Shown in pieces: positions 6,738 through 62,186 of a stretch of 64,000 nt of DNA. The position numbers and the translations under genes are program-made. The notes below the pieces were generated by a model that did not search any database, had not been told where the DNA came from, and saw only the letters and a list, made by a program, of their open reading frames with translations. Origin of the DNA: Ascidiella aspersa (taxonomy: Eukaryota); the NCBI GenBank assembly GCA_963924565.1, contig OZ004608.1:31992001-32056000 (forward strand). Direction: 5' to 3'. Each line of letters starts with the position of its first letter. Position 1 is the first letter of the stretch.

Positions 6738-7667
6738 GTGCTGCGGGTAGTCGTCCGTGAAAAATCATAACGTGCCACATATTTTGTGTGGTGATTTAAA
6801 AAAAGAGAAGTATAATTTTTGTTTCAGAGAAAGCTTGTATTTGTCTGGAATTCTTCGCCAACTAAAAGCTTATACGTTTTGTACATAATTTTAACGTAAA
6901 AATGATCATCTAAGGTGGATTCCCACATCACGTGATCACAATACAACGTCGCCAAATTTTAAAATCGCGATCAGTTTTTGATTCCGTTGATGCTATGTTA
7001 GTAAAGTAAAGGGTGTATGAAGTTCCTAAGAATTAAGGCAAAAGACACCCATGATCTCGGCGAAAAGTACCATGAAATACGTAATTGATAACAAACGTTG
7101 ATCCTATTTGTTTTATGTTACTATCTAAAATCTAAATAATTGTCACCCTTCTGTATTTATCCGTGTGACTGTGTCCGACGTGTGTGGCATGTAATATCAT
7201 ATTGCTTCTCCACATAATATCAGTCCTAAATCGAACTGTGATAGAATATATAACACTGACTAGATTAAACTTTAGTTTTGGTTTTTTTAAGTTTTTAAAT
7301 ATGAAGAGTCTTTACTTTTAAATTACTACTTACGTAGTTTTACTTTAAATCAGTGTTTGCTGATAGAATTTTATGGACCCATCTGCCACTGTGGAAAGTA
7401 TGACAGATTTTTTTTTATTTGAAAGCATGGTAGATATTGACAACATCTTAGGATGCGAGGGCAAAAAATCGGGGTGACCCTATGTACCAAAAGTGATAAG
7501 TTGGATTTTAAAAAGGTGGTACACTAAATATATTTTTTTGCATATTTTTTATCAAACTTGACTCTTAACTAATGGCACGAATTATAAAAAATAGCAATAT
7601 TATTCACCCCTATAACAGTGGTTGTCTTTTTAGATTTCCATGTAATATAGTATTAAAGTGTCAAGGT

Positions 7668-9665
7668 ATGGCCTTGCCGCCACAGAAACGAGCTGAACTG
7701 AAGCAAATCATTCACAACCAACTGACGCAATCGGATATTCAAACACAGATCAAACTTGCGGTATCCAGTGCATTATCTCAAACCAGAGAGGAAGACAGCA
7801 GAAATGTGACTGAAGAGCAAATTTTAAGTGATCTAAAGCGACAGGGCATTGTGCAAAATTTGCTGGAAAAGTTAAAATTTGAATCACCGATTTATGAAGA
7901 TGAAACCAAGCCGTCCACACATAAAGTTGTAGATGAGGAAGTTTTACAGGCTAAACTAAATGCAAGAGCAGCAATTGACCCAACCAGAAGATACATATAT
8001 TTTCAGGTACTTGGTGGAAAGGCATTCTTGGATCATCTTAACGCCCCTGCTCATCCAACTGGGGTACATCAAGAGTGTTCGACTTTTTCGTTGCACGTTC
8101 ATTTCAGAGGCCAGCGGTTTAGGTCAAAGCATGTTCCAGCCGCTTGTGATCCTGCATTTTGTGAAAGTTTTCTCTTGGAAATCCACAGTGACCAGGTTGG
8201 CGATGGCGCCGCAATTGCAGATACAAAGAGCATGCTTTTCATGTCCGATGACATTCATCTGATTGTCATGCAACATGAAACTGATGGAAAAAGTTCAATT
8301 ATTTCGTCGCACTACATTGAATGGAGAAAGATACTGACAACTCCAAAGCAGTACCTATCAAAGTCTATTGAGCTAATGGGAATTGGAACTGAATGCAAAA
8401 TACCGGCTGGGATTCTAGATATTCGACTGGAAGTAATTCCATCCTCTAGGGATCTGTCTTTAACCTACGACATCTATGAAGCCCAACTGCAGATGGAAAA
8501 ACAGAGAATAGCGGAGCGCGACCGGCTCTTTCTTGTTTACGCCAAACAATGGTGGAAAGAATACCTGCAGATAAGAGAGGACCACAACCTGCGTTCAGTT
8601 AAGATTTTTGCAGAGGATGAAAACGGCACCAACCGGCTTGTGTGCAGTTATGTTCATCCGCTCAGCACAGGAAGACTGCTTAACACCCCCAGAAGTGTTG
8701 CCAGATTTGTCAGTGCCTTTGGCTACGAAAAAATGTCCTCCATTGGGTCGGCGAACAAAAACCAGCACTGGCTCACCACACATGCTTTTCTATGCCTAAA
8801 AAAGGGGGACCATGAAGATCATAGCAATTTGCTATGCAGTTTATTACTCGGGTTTGGCCTACAGGCATTTGTTTGTATTGGAACCAAGCAAAATAACTGC
8901 TCGTTTACTTGGGTGATGACAAAGTACTGCGATGGCAGTGTGCAGTTTTGGGATCCAGTTTCTGGAATAAGATATGTCCATAGGCGCGTTGAGCCTGATG
9001 ATCCGCCTATGATAAAGCAGCCCGAATGTAGGTATCCTTACAAGACAGTGGACTGCATCTACAATAACCAATCGTTCTATGCAAACTCGCAACATCTTAA
9101 CCTGGTTGAAACCTGTCGTTTTGACATCGATGACCCTTCACTGTGGAAGAAGATGAGTTCGGATGCAATTAAATCAGTCACTGGAGCGACCAAGCTGAAT
9201 TCATCACAGTCCTTTCCACCACTTGCAACACCAACCTTGGATGCCTTGCTTGTCAGTTCCAACCTGGAAATGGAACTCAAGTCACTCATAGTGGATCACA
9301 GAAATGACTTTGACCTAATGACATCGTGGGATGACCATCTTGGTCACATGTTGGCCACTTCCTTGGCCTCCTATGAGCTGGAGCGGCTTAGTGGAATTCC
9401 GAACATTGGAAACAATGATTTTCAGGATATGGTGAGAAGAGCTGTGCCAAACGGAAACACCTTCAAGGGCTTTCCTATCCAGGTTTTACACAGGGATGCC
9501 CGGAGAGCTTTTAAGACAGCCCTGAGGAACTCAATTTGTGCCGAAATCATCAACTGTCGTGGAGATGAAGTGCGACATTCTGTTAGAGTTGTTGTTACGG
9601 TTTATCCAGATGATGTGCTAGTGTCGTGGGTTATGTTTGCGTGTAGATATCGATCTGTGAATTAG
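7668..9665 (+). CDS. CEP76: Centrosomal protein of 76 kDa, 665 aa, intronless CDS
   Basis: N-terminus MALPPQKRAELKQIIHNQL matches the CEP76 start; C2-like region (YFQVLGGKAFLDHL, LHVHFRGQRFRSK), transglutaminase-like GDHEDHSNLLCSLLLGFGL and C-terminal VSWVMFACRYRSV. ATG 7668 preferred over 7572 because a TTTTTAG acceptor ends at 7633. Confidence 0.95.
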   Translation: MALPPQKRAELKQIIHNQLTQSDIQTQIKLAVSSALSQTREEDSRNVTEEQILSDLKRQGIVQNLLEKLKFESPIYEDETKPSTHKVVDEEVLQAKLNARAAIDPTRRYIYFQVLGGKAFLDHLNAPAHPTGVHQECSTFSLHVHFRGQRFRSKHVPAACDPAFCESFLLEIHSDQVGDGAAIADTKSMLFMSDDIHLIVMQHETDGKSSIISSHYIEWRKILTTPKQYLSKSIELMGIGTECKIPAGILDIRLEVIPSSRDLSLTYDIYEAQLQMEKQRIAERDRLFLVYAKQWWKEYLQIREDHNLRSVKIFAEDENGTNRLVCSYVHPLSTGRLLNTPRSVARFVSAFGYEKMSSIGSANKNQHWLTTHAFLCLKKGDHEDHSNLLCSLLLGFGLQAFVCIGTKQNNCSFTWVMTKYCDGSVQFWDPVSGIRYVHRRVEPDDPPMIKQPECRYPYKTVDCIYNNQSFYANSQHLNLVETCRFDIDDPSLWKKMSSDAIKSVTGATKLNSSQSFPPLATPTLDALLVSSNLEMELKSLIVDHRNDFDLMTSWDDHLGHMLATSLASYELERLSGIPNIGNNDFQDMVRRAVPNGNTFKGFPIQVLHRDARRAFKTALRNSICAEIINCRGDEVRHSVRVVVTVYPDDVLVSWVMFACRYRSVN

Positions 9666-10719: not shown

Positions 10720-10804
10720 CTTCGACATTACAAGGTGAAGGTTCAAAAAGTTTTTGAATAGCATTGCTGCCTGCTAAGCCGATTTTAGAAATAATATAAC
10801 AAAA

Positions 10805-11722
10805 ATGGACAATGAAAGCATCAGCCAATTCTTCTTGGACAAACTGCAAGACAAGCAAACTTCATCAGCGATTGCTGCCATACAAACCTTACTGGAATGC
10901 CTGCGCAAAGACACTGCTGAAACATTGGCAGGGTTGCTGGACAGCCTTAAAGCGGCCATTAAAGTGCTGGTGGACACCGATTGCATTGCGAGTACTTCAG
11001 TTTCATCTGGTGCTGATCTCTTCTTAAGGTTTATTACATTGAGCGCATCACTAGAATCATCAGACTTTCTTCAAGTGAAAGAAGTCTTAACCACCAGGGG
11101 CGAATTGTTTCTTCAGAAAGTCTTAGGTTGTCGACAAAAAATCGCACAGCTAGGAGTGCCGTTTATCAAGGATGGAACAGTGATATTGACCCATTCAAAT
11201 TCAAGGGTGGTTGCTTCTGTGCTAATAAAAGCAGCATCTGCATGCAAGCGATTTTCTGTGTACATTACGGAGTCCTGTCCTGATGAATCTGGAATCGAAA
11301 TGGCCAAAATGCTCAGACAACATGGCATACCAGTAACTGTAATACTGGATGCAGCGGCTGGATATATTTTGGAGAAGGTTGATTTGGTTTTAGTGGGTGC
11401 TGAAGGTGTTGTCGAGAATGGAGGCATTATAAACAAAATTGGCAGTTATCAAATAGCACTATGTGCTAAGACGCTAAACAAACCCCTTTATGTTGTTGCG
11501 GAGAGCTTCAAGTTTGTCAGGCTCTTTCCATTGAATCAAAAAGACCTGCCTGACCAATTTAAATACAAGGCGTCGGTTTTAAAATGCGACAAAGTGGATT
11601 TAAATCACGAGCACCCCACTGTGGACTACACCCCACCATCTCTTATAAGCCTTTTAATCACTGACCTTGGTGTGCTGACACCATCTGCAGTGAGTGATGA
11701 ACTTATTAAACTTTACTTGTGA
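10805..11722 (+). CDS. EIF2B1: Translation initiation factor eIF2B alpha subunit, 305 aa, intronless CDS
   Basis: IF-2B family motifs [43 protein letters not shown] and [19 protein letters not shown]; typical length. Confidence 0.97.
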
Positions 11723-12538: not shown

Positions 12539-15500
12539 TCAGTCACTAGAAGTGCTGCTGGAATTCGATGAATCTGAAGAGGAGTCTTCAGTCGGGGATG
12601 GCGGTCGTCGCTTCCGCTTTAACATGGGAGAGTAACTCAAGGATCGGGAATGCTGTCGTTTGCTGCTACGTTTGTCGTCTTTGGACGACGCCTTGGTTTT
12701 AACCGGATTCTTTCGCCTCGGAGGAGACACGGACGGTGACGTTATTTGACGCTTTCTGGGCGGACTTGGAGACGAAGTGCTTTGCCTTCTTTGGATCTTG
12801 GAGCGGACTGTCAATCTTCGAGGCGGAGACGAATCTGATGTGGATGATTCATCATTCACCAGTTGCCTGGCAACGATATCGGCAATATCTTCACTGGAAC
12901 TGGACGAAGTTGACGATGATGAAGCTGCTCTGGTCCTGTGAGATTTACGCTCTTTGCTTTCACCTGATTTTGATGATTGCTTTCTTTTAGGGAGATCATC
13001 TTCTTTCCTGCTTCTGGAAGTATGCTTTGTTCTCGGACTATGGCCCCTTTCATTTGTTCTTGAACGATTTTTAGGAGTCAAAGACCTTGATCTTCTTCGT
13101 CGACTTGCAACAGGAGAACTTCTCCGATTTTCGGTTTTGCTCTTAGTTTTTTGTTCCCTAACTTTACGTTCCTGTGAGGAGTCGGATTCAGAAGATACTT
13201 CGGTTTGTTTTCTTTTACCCTGTCTTGCTTTTGGAACTGGAGCGTCGCTGTCCGAAGATTCTTCACTTGATGAAGAAACTTGCTTGCGATGTTTCGATTG
13301 TTTGTTAGACCCCCGACTCGGTGGTTTCTTTTTTTGTTTGGCAATTTCTTCGGATGCAGATTCACTGGAAGAACTGGATGAATCCATTCGTTTACGTTTT
13401 ACTTCTTTGGACTTGCGGGATAACTTCTCAGCGCGCTGACGCTCAAGTGCCTTTTCCGCCAAGTAACTTCGCTTTGCCTTGCTGTATGTGCCCGTATCTG
13501 ATTCAGAGCTTGATGCTTTGTCCCTATTATGTTTGGATCTTCTTACAGGGGATCGAGGCTTTTGTACTCTTTTTACTTCTTTTTTGCTGTCATGTTGCCG
13601 TATTTTGCTATGGGAGTGTTTGACCTGTATTTCATTATCAGAGTCTTCAGAACTATCAGAATCAGAGCTCGCCTGTTGTTTTTTCTTGGCAACATGAACT
13701 CGTTTTCTGTTCTTTTCGGATTCCCTGGAAGAAATTTTTTTGTCAGAGTCAGAGCTCGATTGTTGTATTTTCTTGGCAACATGAACTCGTTTTCTGTTCT
13801 TTTCAGCTTCTCTGGAAGATACTTTCCTGTCAAAGTCAGAGCTTGATTGTTGTCTTTTCTTGGCGACATGAACTTGTTTCCTCTTCTTTTCAGCCTCTCT
13901 GGAAGATATTTTTCTGTCAGAGTCTGATGACGAAGAGGTTGATGATGATGGACTCTGATCTTTGGAAATATAGGCTTTCTTTCTTCCAGGCTGTGGTGCT
14001 CGCTTGGCAGCAGGCTCTTGTTGGTCTGAATCTGATGATGATTCACTCTCACTACTACTATTGCTTTTGGTTGGTTTGGACCTTTTGTCTGTAGGTTTTT
14101 GATGGCTGTTTAAAGGCCGTCGTTCAATAGAACGTCCTTCATGTTGCCTAGCTCTGCTGTTACTGTTGTCGCCATAATGGGCCCTGACAGGGGACCTAGC
14201 TTGTCGTGATGGTGGGGACATTGAGCGGTTATGGTGCCTTGAGACCCTATCCCTTGAATGACGATCTCGTTTTTCTGGTGATCTATTATGTCTGGAGTGG
14301 TTTCTTCTCTCCTCACGAGGTCTTGACGATTGAGCACCAGTGCCTCTTCTGTGGCGCATTTCTGGCGATGGGGAACGTCTGGTCATTCGTCTTTCATGGG
14401 ACTTTGACCTACTTGGCCTGTCTCTATGCGTTCCACGGTCGGGTCTCTCTTGGAGCTTCCTCTGATTGTGTCTTTCGAAAGAAGGAGAGCTATTTCTTTG
14501 GGCATAGTGGGATGTTCTTGAGTCTCTCTGTTGAACATGGTGCACTCTTGGGGGAGAGGGAGACCTTGTGCGTTGGTTTCTATCATTTGGTGGTGACAAG
14601 TGTCTACGGCGCACTTGCTTGTTTGGGCTTTCATCTGATTCTGAATCTTTATTCTCTACTGTTTTTTTGCTATGTCTTTGTTTGATTTCTTCTTCTTCTT
14701 CTGAAGAGCTGCTAGATGAAGAGGAACTGCTTTTTGCTTTCTTCTTCCTAGTTTTTGTTTTTTTCTTTTTCACATTGACATTTGAATCCTCTGAGTCGGA
14801 ACTGCTGGAATCAGAGCTACTCGAGGATGAGACCTGTTTGCGGCGTTTCTTTTGCTTCTTCTTATCGTTGTTTATTTGTTCAACCGAAGGTGGGGAGTGG
14901 CTTGGTGATTTCACGATATCGTACCTCTTTGCCTCTTCCCCTTCACCCTTTGCCATGTTACCAGCAAACGAACTGCCCTTCACATAGTCCTTGCGAATTC
15001 CGAAGGCATCTCGGATCTTTTCATTTTCCCGTTCTTTCATTTCGGCTACTTGGTGAGTTTCGGAAACAACCGGCCGACCAGTCGAATCCTCTTTTCCGGG
15101 AAGACACTCCTGATTTTCGAGTAACATTTGACGATAGGACTCTACTTTTTCATTGATTTCTTTCTCATCATACCCTTGCTCCTCCATAAGATCCTGTTAA
15201 GATAAAATAGATTTGCAGTTTTAACAAAGAAGAAGTTTAGTAATTTATTAATCATGCAGAAATGTGCACAAACATGTTTTCTAATTGTGTTATTAATTTA
15301 ACAGAGGGCCTCATTAATTGTCCAGTCTGTACGTACTCAAATTCAGTATTGTAAACATGTGATTTTCGAAAAAATCAAGTCATTTGTTACCCAAGTTGAG
15401 TTCAAGTCGAATCATTGGCATTAAAAATAAATGTTAAACTATTAAAAATAATAAATTCATTATCTTTCGAATCAACGTTGTCCATAGCAAGCATCCAAAA

Positions 15501-20720: not shown

Positions 20721-23270
20721 TTACATGGCTACTTGGCTTTCAAGGGCGTTTGTAAGTTTTCCAGCATTCACCAATAGCTCATTGATGTACGAGGATGCAG
20801 TGGAAAACACTGGACTCGCCTGTGGTTTCCGCAAGTTGTCATAGGTCTGCGAACCAGAATCTGTTGGAGAAACACCATTTCTGTCTCCGTCCAGCATCAA
20901 ACACTTCAGCTGATCGAGCTGGTCTCGGATATTTTTGTTGTGGTCCTCCAACATTTGAACCTGACTGTCCAGTCTGTCTGAATGATTGTGGAGCACCTGG
21001 GCTTTGGCAGCAAGCTGAAGGTCTGTGACTAGGTTCGTGTCTTTGTTGGGCTGTGACTTAGGAGGCAACGACGGGGCAGGACGGGCATGGCTACTGGTCG
21101 CGACGTAACTACCGCTGAAAGGTATCTCGTCCTGTTTGTGGTTAAACAGCGCAGAGTGTCTGTGCGGAAACTCTGCCGTTTTTGCCGCTGATTTGTCGAA
21201 TCCCACGTTTTCGCAGTACTCCAGAATTAGTCGGTGCTCGTCGTCCATGCCATCGATGAGCGAATTGATTGCCACGTGTTCGTCAAGTTGGGCTAGATGA
21301 CTCGCATATTCCTGGATGCGCGAATGCGTTTCTGATGTTACGTTTCCGCCTATGTCACTGCTTTCGATTTGTGGCGAAGTCGAGCCATCATCGTTATTCT
21401 CTGAATTATTTGGCAGATCTCTACTGATTGCTACTTCGGTCAAATTGGATTGTGGCTTATTGTTGGTTGGTAGCATTTGAACAGGAAGGTAGCCGATATT
21501 TTTCTTACTGCTCCTGCCTTTTATCTTGTTTTTAATTACTTTGGTGAAGTCGCGGATGTTTTCAATTGATGTGGTGGGAAGGCAATACTCGGCCATCGGA
21601 TAACAGAATATGTTTCCATTAGCGATGCGACCGGAGAAGAAGCAACTCTGGCAGATGTCATAGTTGAAGTGGCGCAAGCTTCTGTAACGAAAACCGACGA
21701 TCGGAAACTCCCTACACACCGAACAACGAGCGGGGTGACTTACGTGTTCTGCCGCTGCCAGACGATGAAGTACTGGAAGCCATACAAGTGACTGGGGTTC
21801 AAGTTTCAGCCAGTCGATAAACTGTGCCGAATCCAGCTCGGGTTTTGTACCGACAAGCTGAAAACAGCTTCTTATGCTAGGCTGTGCATTACATCCACCG
21901 AATGCAGGCGATTCTCCAATTTGCCAGGGAATGCGCATGAAGTTTTCAACAATGCATCCCAATGAGCTTTCATCTAAAAAGCCGGCAGAGGTTGCATTCT
22001 GGCGGAAAATGTAACGGTACTTATCTTCCAGATTTGCCTTGCACAGGGAAATTAGGGCTATCTTAAAGGAAGCGGATCCGATTCGTCCATGACGCTTTGT
22101 GTCAAAAACATTGAGGATCCAGCTTAAACACATGTCCACACACAGCGGGACATTTACAAGTGTTTTGTGATCGCTTTCCAGCGAGTCGTAAATAGTGGTA
22201 AGGCATCCGATCATTTCCAGGATTCCCATAAACTGATTGATGACAGGATACTTGAACGAGGAGTTTATCTTGTGCTGCTCAAACGCTATATCAGCAGTTT
22301 GAAGGGGCAGCAAGTCCAAACACAAAGCTTTTTGAAGCCTTCGCAGCTTCATGGCCGTTCTGTAAGCGGAAAAGCGAACGTCGTTTAAATCTGCCATTGA
22401 CTCCATGAGCTCGGCCATTTTTGGGTGATCCCAGCTTGTCGTTTCTTCCTGGTGGTTTATGTAGTACGGCACTTTGTTGTCTGCGACCGCTCGCTCCCAC
22501 GGACCCTCCACTGAGCTGGTGAGAAACAGCTGCGAGTTGGGACCGAAGTCTCTCACGGCGTCGACCAGCTGCTTAAACCTCTCGCCACAAAACACCTGCA
22601 GGAGTTTCCACCTCATGTGGATTTCATCCACCTTATGCACTGCCTCGGCCGACAGTCCCATGTTCATGTCTTTCAGGCTTCCAACCTGTCTGTCAAGGTG
22701 CGCGACGCCGTCCGATAATTCTTTGATCTTCGTCAACTGGAAGTTCTTCATGCTGGCGACCTGATCCTGCAAGGATTCAATCGGAAGGTCCCCGACGTTT
22801 TTCCAAGTGTCCCTCTTAATCTCAAGTTGTTTTAACTTCTCTCTGCAATCCGTAATCTGAATCCAAAGGTTTTTGACGGCAGGAAGGAGTTTCTTGATCT
22901 GCTTCTCCAACTGACCGCTCTTTTTTTGCACAACATACCATTCATTTTCAAGGTCCGCTGCCAATCTTTTCATTGATGCCAGAACCTCATTTTTTTCTTG
23001 CTCCAGGAATCCTGGTTTGTCGGTTGGTGATACGGCTTCAATGTCAATCTGACTGGCAAGAGTTGTTCTCACAGTATCAAGGCTACTTTTGATTACGGAT
23101 TGTTTTGCCTCCAGCTCCAGGATAAGCATTTGATGTTGGTTGTTCTGCTGTTGCAAGATGTTGACGTCGGCAACACACTGCATGACCATGTTGCTGACAT
23201 GTTCGTGTTTAATTTTCAGCCAGTCAAGCAAACCTTCCAAAATCGAGCAGATGTTTTTCCACTCGTTCAT
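20721..23270 (-). CDS. Short dystrophin-family protein (Dp116/DRP2-like: spectrin repeats, WW, EF-hands, ZZ, syntrophin-binding region), 849 aa, intronless CDS
   Basis: WW domain [74 protein letters not shown] and [35 protein letters not shown]. An in-frame TAA lies 15 nt upstream of the ATG. Confidence 0.93.
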
Positions 23271-24009
23271 TACGCCTTTAATTTAAAATTTACCTGCAAA
23301 TAAAGACTTATTTTAAAGAACATACTTTTTTAATACAACCTAAATAGCCTTACTATAACTGCTGTATAATTTATTTCAATTGCCAAAAAAAAAATAATTA
23401 AATTACTAGAAGTGCAAATTCGTCAGACCGCAAAAATAGCAGCTAGCATAGTAAACATCAACAATGTTTTCTTCTCTATTTTATTCTAAGTTCGTTTAGA
23501 CGCGAAAGATGATCCCATTTTTCATGATATAGTGTGTATATTGTATAACCTTGTAGTGCAACTGATTGCCGAAATGGAAAAGCACCAGATAGTGCGAAAA
23601 CACATCTCACTGAACACGCTGGTAAGCAGCAGCTGTTTGCTTACGTTGTGACCTACTTTAACCCATTCCCTTAGCAAGGAGACGTGAACTCAAGCGCCCG
23701 ACGTCTTGAAATAGCTGTAACTTTCAAGGTTAATATTCAAAAGCTGGTGCGAAAAATTGGAGCGACATAGCACAACGAGTGATAATGAACATGTTTTAAC
23801 TAAAAATTAAAATTCATAAACATTTAAGCTGTACCTGCGGTTTAAAGTCGCAAATAAAACTCCATCCCGCATAATAAAAATATTTTTCGTTCTCTATCGC
23901 CTCGTGTGCCAACATTGCGAGACAAATGCAATTTAAAACGTTTTTCATTCGCTTTTTCTGATCCGCTGTAAATCTTCTTGATTCTTAATCAATATCGCAT
24001 TTAATCAAA

Positions 24010-49939: not shown

Positions 49940-52900
49940 TCAGGTCGTACTCGAAGTTAACGATGCCAAAGAGCCGTACACGTCAAGCGGCGTTTCTTGT
50001 ATAGCGCTCGGGCGACGCCCAACGGTTGAGTTTGTGCCTTTATTGTGATCGCCAGCGGCGCTAGACGCATCTGCGGATTCAGTTCCAACCTCGTCCGAAA
50101 CACTCGGTAGCAGAACTCGCTTTCTCGACTTTCCAACTGCTTTAACATTGGCTTTCAGATTTGTCTTGCTCGACGCTGTGGATACAGAGTCCTTGATGCT
50201 GGGGGTCGAGCTGGATTTGCTCTTTGCCTTTGCCTTGGCTGCTCCCGACTGCTCTCTAACGGAAGGTGGAATGGCCTTGGCGCTGACCAGACGGTGGCGC
50301 AGTTGGATCACTTCACGCGCTTTGCTGTCACGCTCGCTTTCGGTGTCGGCTAGTTGTTGCTGAAGGCAGGCCACTTCGCGATTCTAAATATATAAACATT
50401 TTTTTTATATTAGGATTACTACTTATTAATTTAGACATTTTTACACATTAGCTGTTCCAGTCCTCAATGTAGACGTTTGAAATGTGTAGGATTTCTTACA
50501 GTAAATGTTCAGAACCGCATTTAGTTTTATTTTCTTTGCAAAACAGAGGGCATAACCCATTGATTGGTTTTGATTTCCTTAAGATAAAATGCATAGCATT
50601 TAAAAAACGAAAGAGTTTATACCAGATTTTGTTTTCATAGATTTATTCTTTTAAGGTGTCGCACGTATTTTAAAGGATTGCAGGGTGTAAAAAAGTGTAA
50701 AACTTTTTAACAATGTAACAAAATTCAAAGTTGAAAATTACAAAAAAAAAAAAAATACGCAGTGTTCAACCGTCTGTTTTAAATTGTGTTCACCATAAGC
50801 ATACCAAACAGTAATGTAGCCTAATTGAAAAAGCCGTACCCAAACAGCGTCTAAAGAGTTCTTTAGCGTGTTGAGATTTTCCCGATAGACGACGTTCAGT
50901 TTTTCGACGATGTCGGGCCTCATAATCATGCCCACCGCGTCACTGGCCGGCGCCCGGTAGCTCCCCATGTCCGGATCCGACAGGCCAGACCGGACGGGAG
51001 ATGGCGGTATGGCGCTGTCCGGACTGACGTCACGTCTGAAGGAAATAAACGCGTTTTTGAGGCAACTTTTAATTTTAAAGATTATGGCGTCTGAAAGTTG
51101 TGAAACATCATAAAAGAGATTTTGGAACAATGAGTTCGAAGTCTACCAAATTATATAACAGGGTTTCAAAAACCTGGTACTCAAAGGGGTTCACAGGATG
51201 TTTTCGTGATGTAATATTATGTGTGTGACGACAAATTTTATGCTGTTGAAAAAGCCATACGATCAGTGACCATTTATTTGTTATTGGCAAGCAAGCAGCA
51301 ATTAAAAAACATTTCATTTTCCGCTCATCGGATGTTGATTATAGTTGGTGAAATATGATGTAACTACTTGAACTTCCTAATTTTCATCGCAAAACTGTTT
51401 TCTGTTGTAGTAGCTCACGAATATGTGGTTTGACCAGTTTGTTGTAAAGCGGAATGTTTTGAAAAAAACATGCTTCGGTGATTGATAAAAAGTGAAAATC
51501 TTCAAAATACGGACATCAATCTTATTTTAAAGAACGTCTGACCCAGAATAATAGCAGCAGAACACCCGTGCACCATCACAAACAAATAGAAGTCATAAAA
51601 CTATTTTACACAAATCTAAATTCTTCTTACCCTGTGTTGTTCCCCTGGGTCGATGGTTGGCGGGTGCTTCCCCTCATCGACACGTGTACGTTGGAAATGG
51701 ACTGGACGTTTCCCCGTCCCTGGTTGCTGGACATCTGGCTTCCCTCGTACATTGCATTGGCGGCCCGGTTACGTCGAGCTTGCTGCATCACTAGGTTCTG
51801 GTAGAAACATATTCGATCGGATGTTTAAGTGGTACAATATGCGGACAACGAAGCGATATTGCCTGTGTGCTGTGCATGTTGAACTGTTGAGCACAATGTT
51901 TCTGAACAGGGTCAAAACGAAAACAACCTACACCAATGATTTTTAACCGGTATTCCGCGAAATTGTAGCGTTCCGCGAAATATATCGCCAGGCAGGAAAT
52001 TTAGTAGTTTGACTAATGTTCTATGCCATGGAACACCGGTCGAAAATCACTCATTTAACACTGGACATATCACGTAAGTAGCTTTTGTTATATGAAAGTA
52101 TTTATCCTTTAAATGTTTCATAGTGATTATAAGATTCGTTATGTAATAATTTCATTGCAATTTTGGCTGTCTGTTGCTGCTAAACAATAAATCATAGTTC
52201 CGTGATCCACAAAACGTTGGAAAACACCAAGTTACACTGCACTACGTCCGGAATCAGCCAGCGACGGCTCTGTATTATTAGGACAACGCATACCCAGGTT
52301 GCAGCTAGTCCACAAGAATACTTTTCGGAAAGCAGAAAAAGTTATTGTTTTCGTACGCAAGGAAGATTACGTCACTCACCATGACCCTCGGATACTTGGC
52401 CAGCGTGTCGGTGACGTCATGTGACGCAAGCACGAACAGCTCCGAGTAGCCGCAGGATATGACGTCACACGTGCGTCGGTGGTTGCGTTGCATGTTGAAG
52501 AGGTTCATTTCGCCGAACACGTCGCCGTCCTTCACCACTGAAACACTTCCATCGTGTTCCCTGCAAGTAGAATACCAGTTATTTAATCAAAGTACAAAAA
52601 TCGCCTTGCCAAAACATTATTTTTTGCTGATTTTTTTTTAATTTAAAAAATAATTGTTGTAAGCAAAGCCTTTTTTTTTCTATGACCTTACGACTGTTTG
52701 GAAGTGTTTTGGAGCAAAAATGCCCCTTTTCTGGTTTTGAAATGATTGTACCATGCAGTGCTTATTGGCAATAAAATACTAAATGTTGGCAATAAAATAC
52801 TAAGTTTTAGCATCAGCCCTTTGTGTAGGGATTGTTTGTCGTAAATTTATTTTTATCTGCTCTACTAATTTCGGTATTCAAGCCTTGTCGTTCATTGTGC

Positions 52901-55900
52901 TGCGAAATGGCCTATTGAAAAGTTTCTGTAAGACACATTCCAAGTTTAAGTTTTGGTGTCAGACAATTAATTACGTTTTGGTCGAATAACCCGACTTGAT
53001 TTTCAAATAATTTGAATGTTCCCTTATTGCCTTGTGTGGAGGTTGCTATCATATTGTTTGGATCGAAATAATTTCATTTGTTTAGACCAGGGGTCGGCGC
53101 CTCTTTGACAAATTAGACACTATTTCACATACTTTTTGACTATTTTAACTATATATAAGTGCGAAAAATTTTCGCTCTTCGCGCGAATGATCTTTCTACG
53201 TCCAGTTTGTTTATGCTTTGATGCTGCCTTTTCAACTAGATCAGCGCTTCTTTACCGTTGCGCGGTGGAAAGCTACCAAAGTGCGTCGCGGAAAAACGGA
53301 AAACGTATTAAAAAATATTGGACATATATTTTTTAACATTTTTTCATTTTTTATTTTCGGCAATGTAATAAAAACTTGCAAGAATTTAAAAGAAATGCCG
53401 ATGTACCATAAAAAATCGCGCTTGCTTCGCTCGCTAGTTGTGCCTTGACTTGAAACAGTTAACAAACACTGAGCTAGCTTAACTTTAAATGTTATCTCGT
53501 TACCCAAAGTAGTTTTATTTCACTTTTCATTAGTAGTATGGACGACGACATGTGAACTCGAATTTTGAACCAAACATACGCTTTTTTCGCGCTTTGCGCC
53601 AACACTTTACTGCCTCCTTAAATTTAAATAAACACGTTTAAGTGCAAAAACGATCCGAGGCCCGCCTGATTAACAGTTGTCCTAAATTGTTAATAACACA
53701 ATTCTTAGTTATCATTTTGTGCGGCCCGCAGAGACCTTCCTGAGTTTGGTTTTGGCCCGCGACTAGAAAAAGGTTGCCGACCCCTGGTTTAGACGCTAAA
53801 CCACTTTTTATGGCTTGCCATTTGTTGCAAAATCGATTGACTGGAATTCTAGTCGCTTCAAAACGCCTTGTTAACAACACTGGCCACTGTTCGTGTGTAC
53901 TTGATTTATATTGCATAACGTAAAACTCACTTTATGACTTGCAGGGCACCCTCTCCTACAATGAACATCTCCGAACCGGCGTCGCCACTCTTGTACACCG
54001 CTTGACCAGGAAGGTAAGTACGTCTGGACATACGAGAAACCAACTCTCGCAGCAGGTTAGAATCGCAAGACGACAACTCGGGCAACTGCAAAATGTGTAG
54101 AAATACGATTAGATAAATTAAATGTTTTTAAATTGTTTTGAAAAAATAGAAATTAGATAAATCAACTTTTGAGTTTTTGTAATTTAAAAAAGTCAAAATT
54201 TTGAAGGTTTTAAAAGTTCTGAGACTATTTTAAGTAAATAATGTTGCAAAATTTTATATATATCGTTTGACTTTTTCGTTTATTTGATTTACAAGCTTAA
54301 GAAAGCTTAAGACGACGTAGTTGACAAACTATATATTCTCTTCCTGTTTTACCCGAGGGATTTAATGCAGTAAACATTCTACTCGGTGTCTTTTCAAAAC
54401 CTCGCACATGTGTTATTGCATTTTTTATGGCTTGTACGTATTTTTAGCTTGCCGAGTCGTTTTTTTGTACCTGCTTTAGAGCCTTGTAGTTTCCGTGAAG
54501 CTTCATTTCGTCTTTGATTGCGATGGGAAGGTGGCGAAGCATCCGCTTTTCATCAAGTTGATCAAAGTCATGGCTGGGATGAAGAATTGTTTAGTTACTT
54601 TTGGTTACAAAGAGCAGATTAGATTTTAAACTTTTAAAGAAGTGCGTTTAATCTAAAGATACAAGTTTTCCACCTTAGAATTTCGTAAACCAACAAACTT
54701 TATTAAAACCAAAACACTCCTAATATAATAAGAAGAAACAAAGAAATCCAAGGATATTTTCAATGATATACAATTTCATTCTAAAGATTCCGGTTTTTGT
54801 TATTAGTTACATGTGAGTTACTCCTAGGAAATTTATTTTTTCCAACTGTCTTACTGAAGCCATGTGTGCTGATAGAATTGCTCGACCCTGTCCCGTGTTT
54901 CCTTCGGTAGGTGGCGCTGTTTCATGAACCTTCGTGATGACGTCATGGCCCTTTCGAACTCGTGCTTTTTGCCTTGACTCGCCAGAACCAAGCTTGTTAT
55001 GTAACCTTGAAAAAAAATAGTTTTATTTGTTAACATTTCTATGTTGGCAAGGCATGTTAAAAGTCGGGTAAAACTTAATAGACGCAAGATTATATTTAAT
55101 AATATAAGAATAAATTGTTTCAATTCCAACGGGTTTATATTTAATTACAAGCATAAAGATGCAAAAGTTATGCGAGGCAGAAAATAAGAACTTCAGTTTT
55201 TTGTAATTTTGTAAATATTCTCGTTTTGGCAACATAGTGTGTATCTAATTCACGTTTAAAATTGATAAACGTAAAAAACAATCACATATTTCAAAGGATC
55301 AGATTTTACCATAAAAAAACTGGTTGTAGCACAAGTCGAAGCCACACTTACCAATCACAAAACAAGTGAGTGCGAATCCAGTCAGGGTCAAGTAAATGGT
55401 GAAGGCGAATCTGTAAACACAAAGTGGTCTGTTTGATTTGGAATCGATCACCAAAACAGGGTGACAGCGGATGTGCCTGCGCCTGTTGAATGGTGGTTTT
55501 AACCAAAGTTTGACGCCATCTCGGAAGTCGTAGCACGGTGTTTCTATGTCTGATTTTACTGATACTGTCAATTGTCAAATCGGTTTGTTATCAAAAGTAG
55601 AAAAACATTACGTAATGTTACTTTTTGTCGATATAAAAGCGAAAACAATTATTGTAAACTTTAAAATAGGTTTTTGATTTTTGCATGATATGTAGAGTTA
55701 ATTTTGCGAGCTGTACCACCAGTGTTATACATACCGCCGTAAATTTACGTGATAGAAGTAAAAATTAAACAGTTTTCATATTACACACTATCAAAACTAA
55801 TAAATAAATTATTATCAAAACTAATAATAATTAAGGCCGTACATTTTATTGACGATAAGGAAGCTTTAACTAAACTAATCCATTAAACGTTGGTTTGGTG

Positions 55901-58900
55901 AAGCGCGTTGTAAAAATACCATGAGCTGTATTCTAAAGAATCGTAACAGTTAGGCTTTTAAAGACACGCGTTTTGCACCCATACTATACGCCGTGTCTTT
56001 TTTATACAGTAAATTTGGAGTATTGCTTAAAAACCACGGGAATGATCTTTTATGGAGATTTTCTACACTTTATCTGAGCAAAAATAAATTGGATTTTAAA
56101 CCTTTTATCCCTGTTAAAGGACGAATACGTTGATCGGGAAATTTAAACACGCTCCCAAAGAACGGAACTGGCAGTTTAAAGCGACCCCACAGTGCTACAG
56201 CGCAACGTTGGATGTAAACACTCGAACCGGAAAACTAACATCGGCATCAATTCCGACAAAAATACGCCACAGGAACTACAGTAGCTGAAGAGAGGAAAAA
56301 CACGGGAACAATCTCGACGTACTGCCAATTGCTTTCCGGTAGAGTCTCCTCCGCGTTCCAAAACATGGATCTGAGCGCCCAATAGAAGGAATAGGTGTAC
56401 TGGCGCGTCATCAAGGCGTACTCGGGAAACAGGCTCGGGTCCGGGTAGGCCCAGGCGGCCAGCGACGCACCTGCGATATTATAGCATCAGTGAAACTTTG
56501 AAGCAGAAAACAACTCCAGTATTTTGCAATTCAAAGTCCAAATGGTCGCAGGCGAAGCAAACTCGGATTCACACCTTTTTGTCATTTTTGCCGCTGCTTT
56601 GAAGTACATTTAGTTAATAGATACGCACAAAAATTGTTGACGACATTCAAACTTTGAAAAAAATATCGGCGACGTTTTCAACTTGGACAAAATAACAATT
56701 CCAAAACTGGTGGTTTTTTGTCAGTTTATTGCGTTCGTTTTATTAACTTAATCTTGTTATCAATCGCATCGACGTAATCCAGACAAGTTTATTGCAATAT
56801 GCTTTTAAAATCCTAATTAGGCACTGAATAAAAAAATGCATGGCATAGAAGAATCACAATGCTGCTAATACGTTGGCGCTTTTATTCGTTGCAATTTTAT
56901 GACTTTTTGTTATCATGCACTTACCGTAGCCGTTGACAAGAGCCAGGGCAAAGTAGATACAGGCGTTGTAGTGTATGACCAGCAGGACGGCATGCATAAT
57001 GTTGATACACCTCCACAGGGTCGGCCATTGAGTGCGCATCTCCACCGTCCGGTACCAGTTGTACTGCACGGAATAAATATGAAGTTGTGTTTTATGTTGA
57101 ACAGTTGTTCTCAAGTTTTGTCTGCTAACTAAGAAAATCACCCTTACTTTACTGTACTTTAAAGAACGAGGCAAATGTCATAATGTTATTTAAAGGTATC
57201 TCGCATCCAAGTGACTACACGGCTGTTTGTAACTTCAAGAAGTACACTGCTTTACAATTTTTATTCAAAAACTAAAAATCATTTTCTGCTGCAGTATGTA
57301 TCTGTTATGACCCAGCGAAAAGCGAAGTTTTGCTCTTGTAGGATAAACCGCTCTGGAACCAGTTAACTTTTCAACCCTAGTGAAACTACAATGGTAAACG
57401 TGTGACAGATGTTTTTAAAGAAGTCCTGTAAACTAAAACAACTTGCCTTAATACGGAAGCCTTTGCTTTACTTAGTTACAAAGGTTGAAAGTGAGTATCC
57501 TAAACACTTACCGCCCGGTAAACCTTCAGCACTCTATTCATCCTAAAATATGGGTTGATTGTGAGCACAAAAAATATATCAGTCGGAATGACGGACAAAA
57601 TGTCCAACGCCAAAGTCCACTCTCTTCTGTGGAAGTGAATCAGGTCTTCTGTGTCTGTAAAAAAGATCAATTCAAGTAATAAATGCAACAAAGACATAGC
57701 GACTCCGCTTATGTTTAACAGCAAGTAAACAAAAGCAAAATTGATGAGAATTTTGGTAAAATCAGATTACAAAAATGCAGTCGATGGAATTATTATTTTT
57801 TCGACAAATTAAATAAAAAACGATTTTCCACCATGCCATCGCAATATTGGCAAAAGACAAGTGCTACACAAAAATGTATTGCTATAAGATAGGTATACCT
57901 TTTATATATACGCCACTCTTCATGATACGCGTTCGAAATTTGATGAAAATGTCAACGATGTATATCACGTCGCACGTCACGTCGATGCAAAGCCACAAAC
58001 CACTCCAGGGCACTTGTATGTCTGCGAAAACAAAATAAGGCTAAGAATTTGCATGGATTTCAAGACGGTTCTTGGTGTACACTGTACACCTATAAAACGC
58101 CTATAAAATAAAAAAAAACTTTTTATTTGAAACAAGTTTTAAAATTTTAGGTGAATTTTTCACTTTTTGGAGGACATATTGTGTACGTGAAACACTTCAA
58201 GATCCAGTGTAATAGGAGTCAGCTAACGCAAATCATACGCACTTTTGTTTGTCAATCTATTGGTTTGCCAGTCACGAACGGGTTTCGTCAATAAATTGCA
58301 TGTATGTTTTTAGATTTAATAGCTTTCTTTTTTTTATAAATTAAACGAAGAAAACGCACTTCATCCTTTTGGAAAAGGCTATATGCACTTTACATACTCT
58401 CTGCAAAGTAGCAAACCTTTTGGCTATTAACAGGTAAAGCGCGAAAAATGCAGGGCTTAACTGCGGTTCAATCAAAAGTTTTTTCTGTTGAACTATTTCT
58501 ACAAAAAACGGAACTTTAAAGCAGCTATTTTTGGCAGCTTTGCTTCGAATCGTAGTTAAACTAAAGGCAACGCTGTTCAAAAGCATTGTCGGACCACTTG
58601 TGGTGTTTGACCTTTTGGTGATACGCAACCCGTATTTTGTTGAAAAAGATAACGAGCGATTGGTCGCAGTGCCGCAGCGGGCAATAAGCGGGTCAGAGTT
58701 GTTGGCCAGGGGCGGGTCCAAGTTTTGTTTCGGGGGAGGAATTTTGTTCTCGAAAAACTTGATTCTCTTAATCTCCCAAAACTTGTTTCTCATGCAGATG
58801 CATCCAGTCTGATCGCGCGAAGAAAAATATTACGTTAATTTGGTTTAAATTGGCAAAACCGTCAAGTTAAAAGGGTACGTGGCGTTATGGCCACATAATA

Positions 58901-61900
58901 GAGTTTGGCATAATGCTCGACTCAGCATTTACAATTTAATTTAACGAAAACTGCCTTTATACAGTTTATGAGTTCACACGCCGCAAAACGCTATTATATT
59001 CATGGTGTCTTTTTGGGACAAAAATGTAGTAGAATTGGATAGAAGTTATTTCGTATTGCATAGTAAAAGTTGGCATAACAAATAGATTTGAGGGGTCATG
59101 GCCTGATGTCCCTCCACCCTGGATCCGCCCATGCTGTTGACACAAGTGTGCCCGTTTAGCTGGGCCACGTACCAAAGACTTGAAGGCGTTCGGCGTCATA
59201 GCGTCGCAATGCACCACGCCACAGGACTCAAAATAGCAGCGGTCAATTCGCGTGGCAGCCAGTGGAACGGAATCTGTTTATAGCTGCATATGCATATGAC
59301 CTTCGTCCTGAGTTTCCTGTAATTTGCGATTTAATGGATCTTGACCCACTTTTAATCGCGGGACATAAATAAGTGTATCTCGTATACGCCTTATAGTTGC
59401 TTGTTTTGTTCTTCACCATAAGGACAAGGCTGATATTTTTAATAGGCATCAAGCTTAGATTTTTATTCTTTATGAGACTTGGCAAACTTGAAAACTAGTG
59501 TTTTGTTCTAAATTCAAAGGTACCCTCGTTGTTTGAAATAAATTAAAATTGTAGGAATTGCGTAGTAGAACAGTGGTTTTAGCCTGTGGTTAATTATATC
59601 TAAAGGGTCAATTGTCAATTTAAAGGGGTGGTTCCATCTTTGAACTAAATAGCAGTAATAAAGATTATTGTCAGCTTTTCGATTTTGTTACTTTGCTCAT
59701 GAAAAATCAAAATGCAGTGGTTTGGTGGCTGTTTCAATGAAATGTAAAATATTTTGGGGCAGTTTACCGAGTTGGCTTTTGTGGATTTTAAACAGAAGTT
59801 TGTTTCGTTCCACGATCGTGTTTTTAACTATTCCTCTTTGCTATATCCCGATAGATCACAGCGCATTAAGGCAGTTTTACCAAGTTGTGTACTGCGCCCA
59901 TGTTGTCAATTTGACCACTCAAACGAGAAGCAATTAAAACGCTATGCCAAATCACGTAAAACGGAGCACGCAAGCTCAGCGTTGTTGACCTACTCCTGTG
60001 TATATTGTTATCGAACGGGAAATAATCGAGCTGGCCGATTTTGCCAAAACCAACTGGCGCTCGAAAAGTTGTCGCTCCGCCCCAACGACTGTCGCGTGTC
60101 GCCAAGTGCCGCTTGTCGCTTTGCGTGCGTCGCGACTTGGCATAGCTGCTTATTGAGATAAGGACTTAATCAGGTCCTTGTCGAACGGGTCATAAGGTCG
60201 CGACATTTTCAGCAGAAAGAAAACAATTTTATCGTTTTCAGCTCAGCCTAAACGCCGAGCAACACAATTTTTTTCAGAAATTGCCTACATGAAAATCTTA
60301 CAACATAATTTAAGGAAATATTAAGGTTTAGAAAACTCCACCTAGTAATAACAAGGAATTTAGATTCTGCATGTTTTATTATAATCTTAATAGGGAATTT
60401 AGATTTGCACACTATAAATAATTATGACAATTAGGTATTTACATGACACACAATTATAATGGTAATGTTAAATAAATATAGAGAAATACCACACTTCATC
60501 GGAAATGGTCCTCTTCATTCTGAAAAGACTACCAAATCCTTGGTTTTTACCAGCTTAAAGAGCCCATAGCGCTCAGCTTTAACAAAGCAGTTAACATCGC
60601 CTAAAAATAGACACACACCTGTATCGAATGTAGCTCGCAGCGGGATCACCCAAACGTTGTACAGTACGGCTAGGGTTACAACCATTAACCAACAATAGAG
60701 GAAGGTAGATTGCGGCAGATACGACTTCCGCCAGATGGAGCTACAGAGGCTACTCAGCGAAAGCTTTTTCGTTCGAAATTTCTTCTTCGACGATATTCGG
60801 AACCTTGACGTGTCTTCTTGATCAAGATCATCTTCTGTAATGACGAATCAGTAAAATATTAGGAAACCAACGACATCTCTCTTAGATTGTCAAATTACTT
60901 TTACACAAAGTACAATTCAAGCAAAAACTATAAAGTCAACACCCAGTCTTGACCTTTTTACGAGCAAAACTTGAAGTAAAAATTGAATGTTGTTTTTCAA
61001 ATCTTACCAAAATTAAATAATACGAAGTCTAGGTCAATTCACATGCCTTAACAACTTTCTAATATTTTGCCCTAATAAGTCAAGATGATTGATTCATGAA
61101 ATTATGTCATAAAGACTGAAGGCAATTCGAGTCATTTAATGATAATAACTTCAGTTCACTGAAGTCAAGTCATTAAGAGGTAGAATCAAAGAATCTTAGT
61201 TCTACGTCAAAAAAGTCAAGTCGTTTGTAAACAGGTATACTTAGATCATTGCAACACTGATTGTAACATACAGTTAATACCATATATAAATCGGCGTTCC
61301 AGATTCCTACCACAGCGTTGAAACAATTAATGAAGTAATGGACAGTATTTTGGTTAGGGTGTCGGTTATAGTGTTCGGGTGTGGGTGGGTCAAGTATTGT
61401 TCTATTTAATATTAATTTTAACCCTTACCCAAACCCACACCCTAACCCAAATACTATTTTGTTGTTTTGGGATTCTAGACCAGCGACAAAAAAATCGGTC
61501 GCGTATTTCAACTGACGCTTCAAAACTCGCTACTCACCGGACGACGAGTCCTCTTCCATGGGTCCGGACTCCTCGATGGTGATCGGCACCGGGTTGCCGG
61601 CCGAGTTGACCGAGTAGATGCCGGACTCGTAGGCGCGGTACCCGGTCGCGGTAGTGGGCGAGTCGCCAGGGCCCTGGTCATCGCTGTCCGAGTAGCGAGG
61701 CACGTAAGCAGGGTTTGTGTACCTCGAAGTACGAAACGCGTCCCGTCGGCCGCTTTCTTCAGCCATAGAAGCGCCTTCGAGGCTTTTTAGTGCGATCGCG
61801 TCTTCCCTTTGACTGCTCGAGGTGCTCTCGCTGGTCAGGAAGCGAGAGTCTCCTTGAGCGCGCGTCTCGGGCGTTACGGCGTCCAGCCGCCGCCAACGCA

Positions 61901-62186
61901 GCGCCATGCGCACCGCTTTGGCCAAAGTGCCGAATACGCCGGGTTTCTTGTCCTCATTTCCCGCCGTTTCGCCGACTTCTCCCGGGCTCACAAGACGCTG
62001 AACGTTGAAGTCCTGCGAGCCGGAAGCTGTCGAGTGCTTGGGCGTGGCGCTCTGCGACTTGGCCGACCAAGACTCGCGCGGTTTTCCCGGCGGCTGTTCG
62101 GCCTCGGGAGCGTCGCTGGAAAACGGCGGCGATTCAGCGTCCCTCGCCTCCGCTGCCTCGACCGTTGGGATAGGGTCGGTGTCCAT
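49940..62186 (-). CDS. Cyclic nucleotide-gated channel subunit, divergent, about 957 aa; 14 exons: 62186-61538, 60834-60619, 58021-57899, 57654-57512, 57063-56925, 56470-56323, 55410-55352, 55005-54855, 54573-54471, 54085-53931, 52560-52380, 51797-51631, 51035-50840, 50383-49940
   Basis: S1 LYNVWVIPLRATF, S2 DVIYIVDIFIKFRT, S3 LDILSVIPTD, S4 FRMNRVLK, S5 IHYNACIYF, C-linker, and CNBD (YLPGQAVYKSGDAGSEMFIVGEG, FGEMNL...RRTCDVISCGYSELFVL); all introns GT-AG and phase-compatible. Confidence 0.93.
53088..53786. mobile_element. hAT-like MITE with perfect 8-bp TSD
   Basis: CAGGGGTCGGC ... GCCGACCCCTG; TSD GTTTAGAC on both sides. Confidence 0.88.
58707..59133. mobile_element. PIF/Harbinger-like MITE
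   Basis: CAGGGGCGGGTCCA ... TGGATCCGCCCATG termini. Confidence 0.55.
61293..61487. mobile_element. MITE family A copy in CNG intron 1
   Basis: GGCG...ATTCCTACCAC / GGATTCTAGACCAGCG termini; internal GGTTAGGGTGTCGGTTA matches the 6151 copy. Confidence 0.75.

What the first reader, a model, noticed from the sequence alone, without database searches (positions are those of the whole stretch)
56323..56470. CNG channel with a radically rewritten selectivity filter
Seen: the pore segment reads QYTYSFYWALRSMFWNAEETLPESNWQ, followed by S6 FAFTIYLTLTGFALTCFVIG. Known: CNG alpha subunits have YWSTLTLTTIGETPPP and beta subunits YWAVKTLITIGGLPDP, while K+/HCN channels have GYG. Here TIG is replaced by bulky FWNA with two Glu, yet S1-S5, the C-linker and the nucleotide-binding cassette (FGEMNL...RRT) are intact and all exons stay in frame. 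Inference: altered selectivity (for example Ca2+-favouring), a modulatory subunit, or a non-conducting pore, by analogy with pore-dead HCNL1 proton channels.
Basis: partly seen in the sequence, partly recalled or inferred. Interest (0 to 1): 0.72.

Follow-up and report, generated by a model that had tools for sequence, protein, structure and literature searches.

The report
Pore-eroded fourth tunicate CNG channel
This sea-squirt-like animal keeps and transcribes an extra copy of a cyclic-nucleotide-gated ion-channel gene whose otherwise near-invariant ion filter has been rewritten, so it likely acts as a damping partner of normal channels rather than as a normal pore.

Summary
Confirmed. The exon at 56470-56323 (minus strand) belongs to a 14-exon, 957-aa CNG-type gene. 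A spliced contig contains it at the predicted junctions, and 16 of 16 listed exonic variants are synonymous. Aligned without gaps, the filter TIGE becomes WNAE: the key glutamate stays, T-I-G is lost, and the upper S6 gate Phe becomes Thr. The genome also holds ordinary CNGA, CNGB and CNGD-like genes, so this is a fourth copy. It shares four exact intron positions with the CNGD-like gene and none with the others, so it likely arose from it. The only relative found (one exon, P0004) has a different odd filter (LVND): 0 of 13 residues identical there against 20 of 35 in the flanks. The FWNAEE motif is therefore not conserved, which argues against a tuned calcium filter and points to a pore freed from normal constraint. 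HCNL1 shows the same signature, but its S4 proton-pore change is absent here. Best reading: an accessory or inhibitory subunit that does not conduct alone (inferred, untested). This scan's earlier notes held no match.

The parts
61538..62186 (-). exon 1: start codon and low-complexity acidic N-terminus
   Evidence: its length fits the record offsets of the X3 contig; its joint was not directly seen
60619..60834 (-). exon 2: pre-S1 and S1
   Evidence: the X3 loose end at 58024 matches its end
57899..58021 (-). exon 3: S2
   Evidence: X3 joint 57654/57899; weak Ion_trans hit
57512..57654 (-). exon 4: S3 and S4 (R367, R370, K373, R376)
   Evidence: X3 joints; alignments
56925..57063 (-). exon 5: S4-S5 linker and S5
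   Evidence: best PDB hits CNGA3 and CNGA1, E about 1e-6; X3 joints
56323..56470 (-). exon 6: turret, pore helix and altered filter (the finding)
   Evidence: present in the spliced X3 contig with one synonymous difference
56349..56360 (-). filter codons W461-N462-A463-E464, in the place of T-I-G-E
   Evidence: gapless alignment to own-genome CNGA and CNGD-like exons; coordinates
56370..56372 (-). R457, at the position of CNGB1 K841 and CNGB3 R403
55352..55410 (-). exon 7: S6, hinge G484 kept, upper gate Phe replaced by T488, lower gate I492
   Evidence: X3 joints
54855..55005 (-). exon 8: end of S6 and first part of the C-linker
   Evidence: X3 joint and loose end
54471..54573 (-). exon 9: C-linker
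   Evidence: X3 loose ends
53931..54085 (-). [quoted passage not shown]
   Evidence: Pfam cNMP_binding E 2.7e-4; the X3 loose end at 54471 matches its start
52380..52560 (-). exon 11: phosphate-binding cassette (G645, E646, R658, T659)
   Evidence: Pfam cNMP_binding E 6e-7, over cut-off; PDB CNG hits
51631..51797 (-). exon 12: divergent C-helix and linker
   Evidence: no PDB hit; joint not seen in RNA
50840..51035 (-). exon 13: start of a putative coiled coil
   Evidence: corrected donor; joint not seen in RNA
49940..50383 (-). exon 14: putative coiled coil (no CLZ match), low-complexity tail, stop codon
   Evidence: joint not seen in RNA

Best explanation
This is a transcribed, selectively maintained fourth CNG-channel gene, likely a duplicate of the tunicate CNGD-like gene, whose filter and S6 gate have eroded; it likely does not form a normal cation pore alone and is predicted to work as an accessory subunit that damps or retunes canonical CNG channels. 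Shown: gene structure, splicing, the substitutions, purifying selection, three ordinary paralogues, shared introns, and an unconserved filter in one relative. Inferred: it folds and reaches the membrane (S1-S5 charge network kept); it may bind cyclic nucleotide (cassette kept, C-helix divergent); four Trp461 side chains at the filter base would obstruct a homotetramer; as one subunit in four it would lower conductance and Ca2+ block, or suppress the channel.
For: (1) Spliced contig and 16 of 16 synonymous variants. (2) Erosion is concentrated in the pore: of columns where CNGA and CNGD-like agree, 4 of 21 are kept in filter plus S6 against 80 of 159 elsewhere (p=0.009); of columns at least 90% conserved in up to 34 other CNG models, 4 of 13 against 56 of 84 (p=0.03). 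(3) Against P0004 the filter segment is 0 of 13 identical and the flanks 20 of 35 (p=2e-4). The same segment is 11 of 13 and 13 of 13 identical between orthologue pairs of the CNGD-like and CNGA genes, at similar flank identity. (4) All 63 of 80 metagenome CNG loci in which a pore was read keep Ile then Gly or Ala in the filter. (5) Canonical partners exist in the genome. (6) No CLZ match, as in the CNGD-like gene; Lagman et al. propose CLZ-less subunits as one-in-four partners of CNGA (PMC9803222). (7) R457 and I492 match CNGB-type positions. (8) The vertebrate subunits that form no channel alone all act as accessory subunits (PMC10761061).
Against: Known accessory subunits keep TIGG or TVGD because all four subunits line the pore, so a filter this free fits a conducting heteromer poorly. 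R457 is Val in P0004, and the genome's own CNGB has Met there. An acidic residue at the filter-Glu position and the following Pro are kept in both sequences, which could mean a working outer mouth. The C-linker that mediates assembly is eroded (7 of 17 columns). Co-expression with a partner is not shown. The conservation test rests on one 57-aa exon of unknown species. The tree does not place the gene: sister to CNGD-like AU 0.18, sister to CNGB AU 0.49.
Confidence: 0.45

Rival explanations
1. It forms a conducting channel with unusual selectivity or gating, for example a wide non-selective or calcium-favouring pore. The Trp at the filter base could take over from the lost S6 gate Phe just below it.
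For: E464 and P468 are kept, with Asp and Pro in P0004. Loop length is unchanged. Thr-to-Trp at the filter base with Phe-to-Thr directly below looks like a reciprocal size swap. The S6 hinge Gly and the S4 arginines needed for gating are kept.
Against: 0 of 13 identity to P0004 in the segment. The second Glu is Arg in P0004. R457 would repel Ca2+. Ile and Gly/Ala are invariant in all 63 surveyed pores. Filter replacement makes HCN channels non-conducting (PMC7306766).
Confidence: 0.25
2. It is a stand-alone pore-dead protein like HCNL1: a homotetramer whose central pore is plugged and which works through another part, as a cyclic-nucleotide sensor, a scaffold through its C-terminal coiled coil, or a conductor through S1-S4.
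For: A filter that differs between species is the signature that flagged HCNL1. S6 and the C-linker are eroded while S1-S5 keep 20 of 23 near-invariant columns. It has its own putative coiled coil.
Against: S4 has no gap in its basic series (R367, R370, K373, R376, as in the CNGA paralogue), whereas HCNL1 needs an Arg-to-Met gap. Eukaryotic CNG channels are not opened by voltage. The acidic filter residue is retained.
Confidence: 0.22
3. It is an assembly artefact, a mis-modelled exon or a decaying pseudogene.
For: No exonic reads in RNA run X6 (about 6% of the run read). The branch is very long.
Against: The exon is present in the X2 contig, X5 reads and the spliced X3 contig. All 13 introns are GT-AG in an open frame. 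16 of 16 listed variants are synonymous where 22% is expected. A matching exon exists in another organism.
Confidence: 0.03

Closest known systems
CNGD subfamily (Lagman et al. 2022, PMC9803222), represented by the own-genome gene at G000:C4:16.60 Mb, named CNGD-like by elimination
   Same: Four identical intron positions and phases, a shared 2-residue C-linker insertion and 1-residue CNBD deletion, a similar S4 end, and no CLZ match.
   Different: The CNGD-like gene keeps TIGE and the S6 gate Phe; core identity is only 29%; the tree neither supports nor rejects the grouping.
Vertebrate accessory subunits CNGB1, CNGB3 and CNGA4
   Same: Basic residue at the pore-helix position that faces the filter mouth, and Ile at the lower gate; proposed role.
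   Different: They keep TIGG or TVGD. The window gene keeps the filter Glu, has the long CNGA-type turret and lacks the S6 arginine gate (T496). A separate true CNGB exists in this genome.
HCNL1 proton channel of fish sperm (PMC7306766)
   Same: Cyclic-nucleotide-channel paralogue whose filter is lost and differs between species.
   Different: It belongs to the HCN branch, is voltage-gated and conducts through an S4 with an Arg-to-Met gap; none of these is seen here.
CNGA1-3 and TAX-4 principal subunits
   Same: Best PDB matches for S5, turret and CNBD; filter Glu, S4 arginines and hinge Gly kept.
   Different: T-I-G lost, gate Phe lost, no CLZ, no shared introns with the genome's CNGA; a sister position to it is rejected (AU 0.0003).

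Membership tests
CNG channel family | Six transmembrane segments, C-linker and CNBD in one chain | tested here: met
   31% identity to own-genome CNGA against 22% to HCN
CNG channel family | Phosphate-binding cassette Gly-Glu...Arg-Thr | tested here: met
   G645, E646, R658, T659
CNG channel family | Selectivity filter TIGE, TIGG or TVGD | tested here: not met
   WNAE; only the Glu is kept (definition)
CNG channel family | Cavity gate Phe and Val/Ile in S6 with hinge Gly | tested here: not met
   G484 and I492 kept, Phe replaced by T488
CNG channel family | Cyclic-nucleotide-gated cation current | not testable with these tools
   needs electrophysiology
CNGA subfamily | C-terminal leucine zipper (CLZ) | tested here: not met
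   Pfam CLZ hits own CNGA (E 1e-10) but no exon of this gene (exons scanned singly); 55 of 1000 shuffles reach the pairwise score
CNGA subfamily | Groups with tunicate CNGA | tested here: not met
   AU 0.0003 on 17 of 36 sequences; 0 shared introns
CNGB subfamily | TIGG-type filter, short turret and S6 arginine gate | tested here: not met
   a separate CNGB lies at G000:C3:28.66 Mb
CNGB subfamily | Basic pore-helix residue facing the filter mouth | tested here: met
   R457; not kept in P0004
CNGD lineage (tunicate) | Descent from the CNGD-like gene, judged by shared introns | tested here: met
   4 shared positions, hypergeometric p 8e-8; only the CNGD-like orthologue L089 shares them among 31 metagenome models, and one other shares one
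CNGD lineage (tunicate) | Protein phylogeny places it in the CNGD clade | tested here: inconclusive
   long branch; not rejected (AU 0.18) but not preferred; no named CNGC, CNGD or CNGF references were available
HCNL1-type proton channel | Filter absent and unconserved between species | tested here: met
   0 of 13 identical to P0004; one relative only
HCNL1-type proton channel | Arg-to-Met gap in the S4 basic series | tested here: not met
   R367, R370, K373, R376 are unbroken; M368 sits at a non-basic position
HCNL1-type proton channel | Hyperpolarisation-activated proton current | not testable with these tools
   needs electrophysiology

The most novel reading that the evidence does not exclude
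A pore-dead member of the true CNG family in animals: a chordate pseudochannel kept by selection for a job that needs no central ion pore, either silencing canonical CNG channels from inside the tetramer or relaying cyclic-nucleotide binding without current.
Probability: 0.4. Interest if true: 0.75.

Novelty: new variant of a known kind. Interest (0 to 1): 0.55.

Why it matters
The CNG filter is described as highly conserved, and published surveys list three classical CNG genes for Ciona. A fourth, expressed gene under selection whose filter drifts freely is a natural experiment. It tests what one aberrant subunit does to a CNG tetramer, whether the filter Glu suffices for conduction, and whether CNG proteins have non-conducting roles. 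It can be tested directly by co-expression with three ordinary paralogues from the same genome.

Tried and rejected
Alternative canonical pore exon: none in either flanking intron and no second copy in the genome. Full-length orthologues: two 'longer' searches, with the pore exon and the CNBD exon, scored nothing (weak evidence). The profile search returned only P0004. The HMMER representative search gave four hits, three unrelated by inspection. The first metagenome scan confirmed no locus; the second gave 80 CNG loci, none scoring best against the window protein. Candidate loci at G000:C7:21.37 Mb and C6:30.65 Mb were chance matches. No RNA holder was listed by kind; X3 counts as RNA only because its contig is spliced. 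The Protein Atlas gave no answer. No structure or complex was predicted: those tools take only contiguous translations and the pore is split over exons. The gene being the tunicate CNGA or CNGB orthologue was rejected because both exist elsewhere in the genome. A CLZ-like coiled coil looked borderline (14 of 500 shuffles) on a mis-set junction and is not significant after correction (55 of 1000). Ten literature searches listed no paper on such a gene; for I saw 25 of 147 listings. PMC12125802 gave no pore-variant passages.

Full report
OBSERVATION. The window's minus strand carries a 14-exon gene from 62186 to 49940. All 13 introns are GT-AG and the frame is open for 957 aa (which corrects an exon-13 donor I mis-set). 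The reported exon is exactly 56470-56323. Exon-wise searches place the protein among CNG channels: S5, turret and CNBD match CNGA1 and CNGA3 best, and Pfam cNMP_binding passes its cut-off. A GH6 match over cut-off elsewhere in the genome fits a tunicate; that tunicates carry GH6 in their cellulose synthase is recalled.

IT IS REAL AND EXPRESSED. Run X3 holds a 1738-nt contig that skips the introns at 57654/57899, 57063/57512, 56470/56925, 55410/56323 and 55005/55352; two of these are printed with the cut shifted by a base or two. Loose ends match the exon 2-3, 8-9 and 9-10 joints. The library type of X3 is not on record; splicing is the evidence that it is RNA. The joints of exon 1 and of exons 10-14 were not seen. 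Run X2 and DNA reads X5 cover the pore exon. RNA run X6 gave no exonic reads in about 6% of the run, so expression is low or restricted there. Of the variant rows shown (40 each; 281 and 87 rows not shown), 16 lie in exons. All 16 are synonymous, including one in the filter Ala codon, whereas 22% of possible changes are synonymous. The rows shown are the best supported, so rare changes are under-counted.

WHAT CHANGED. The pore exon aligns without gaps from the pore-helix Trp to the post-filter Pro. W461-N462-A463-E464 stand where CNGA has T-I-G-E, so the Glu that governs Ca2+ block is kept and T-I-G is lost (filter definition: PMC10761061, passages). R457 lies four residues before the filter, where CNGB1 and CNGB3 have the Lys or Arg that weakens Ca2+ binding. 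In S6 the hinge Gly484 and lower-gate Ile492 are kept, and the upper-gate Phe is Thr488. Three of the four disease-linked S4 arginine positions are kept exactly and the fourth is shifted by one. Erosion is concentrated in filter plus S6: 4 of 21 shared columns are kept against 80 of 159 elsewhere (p=0.009), and 4 of 13 near-invariant columns against 56 of 84 (p=0.03). For the filter alone the first test gives p=0.07. The C-linker is also eroded (7 of 17). The end of the C-helix has lost its hydrophobic residues and has Asn where the CNGA paralogue has Asp; that this Asp selects cGMP is recalled.

HOW UNUSUAL. A metagenome scan seeded on S5 motifs, and so blind to the pore, gave 80 CNG loci. 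A pore was read in 63. Sixty have x-I-[G/A]-[E/D] and three have a CNGB-type TIGG; they reduce to 27 distinct motifs. The other 17 were mostly too short. None resembles the window gene.

THE ONE RELATIVE. P0004 is a 57-aa reading frame from an unnamed contig. Its ends mirror this exon's ends, and it is 20 of 48 identical to the exon against 14 and 12 identities to the CNGA and CNGD-like exons. Orthology is inferred from that. Its filter reads LVND. Residues 455-467 are 0 of 13 identical and the flanks 20 of 35 (p=2e-4). For orthologue pairs of the ordinary genes the same segment is 11 of 13 and 13 of 13 identical, with flanks of 27 of 40 and 20 of 32. FWNAEE is therefore not a conserved motif; only the acidic position and the Pro persist.

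ORIGIN. The genome holds a CNGA with TIGE and CLZ (C3:12.17 Mb), a CNGB (C3:28.66 Mb) and a CLZ-less TIGE gene (C4:16.60 Mb). I call the last CNGD-like by elimination from Lagman et al. (PMC9803222; passages and section 5). The window gene is a fourth. It shares four intron positions and phases with the CNGD-like gene and none with CNGA, CNGB or HCN (p 8e-8). Among 31 distinct long metagenome models, only the CNGD-like orthologue L089 has all four and one other has one. The remaining 49 loci were dropped as short or redundant. Protein trees give a long branch: a sister position to tunicate CNGA is rejected, and positions next to CNGD-like or CNGB are not (17 sequences). Site patterns are even between CNGA and CNGD-like (35 against 34). 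A duplicate of the CNGD-like gene is the best reading; a survivor of another ancient subfamily is not excluded.

MECHANISM. A filter free to change between species is hard to reconcile with a tuned selectivity. It is the signature that marked HCNL1 as pore-dead (PMC7306766, passages), but HCNL1's S4 Arg-to-Met gap is absent here. Folding determinants, the nucleotide cassette and the outer-mouth acid are kept, there is no CLZ, and normal partners exist. I therefore favour an accessory or inhibitory subunit that does not conduct alone (0.45), over a conducting channel of odd selectivity (0.25) or a stand-alone pore-dead protein (0.22). The main weakness is that known accessory subunits keep near-canonical filters. 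Nothing functional was tested.

PRIOR KNOWLEDGE. Two papers list three classical CNG genes for Ciona (PMC9803222; PMC8835908, passages). A precedent for asymmetric divergence of tunicate duplicates exists for HCN (PMC3487815, abstract). PMC12549891 was seen as passages only. Ten searches listed nothing on a pore-eroded tunicate CNG gene. The four supplements of PMC9803222 held no tunicate names as text; their trees are figures I could not see, so an orthologue may sit there unremarked. Earlier notes of this scan gave no match.

VERDICT. A real, expressed and selected fourth CNG gene with a degenerate, unconserved pore. It is a new variant of a known kind, with interest 0.55.

Noticed in passing
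window 53080-53794 (intron 10 of the CNG gene): High-copy element with 19-nt terminal inverted repeats and DNA depth hundreds of times that of its flanks; MITE-like.
   Followed up: partly
window 20724-23282 (-): Intron-free 853-aa stretch with WW, two EF-hand and ZZ domains, the C-terminal part of a dystrophin/utrophin-like protein; unusual to be in one exon.
   Followed up: partly
window 7569-9662 (+), 10778-11719 (+), 12542-15196 (-): Long single-exon reading frames: CEP76, an IF-2B-family subunit, and a cwf21-domain Ser/Arg-rich protein.
   Followed up: partly
G000:C5:23.18-23.21 Mb (L018, L019): A multi-repeat cyclic-nucleotide-gated K+-channel-like gene with several CNBD hits and a GYG pore, possibly the tetraKCNG orthologue.
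   Followed up: no
G000:C3:28.66 Mb (L031, L032): The genome's CNGB has filter TIGN instead of TIGG and Met at the pore-helix position where vertebrate CNGB has Lys or Arg; its core has only two introns.
   Followed up: partly
window about 61150-61570: A second high-copy stretch just downstream of exon 1.
   Followed up: no
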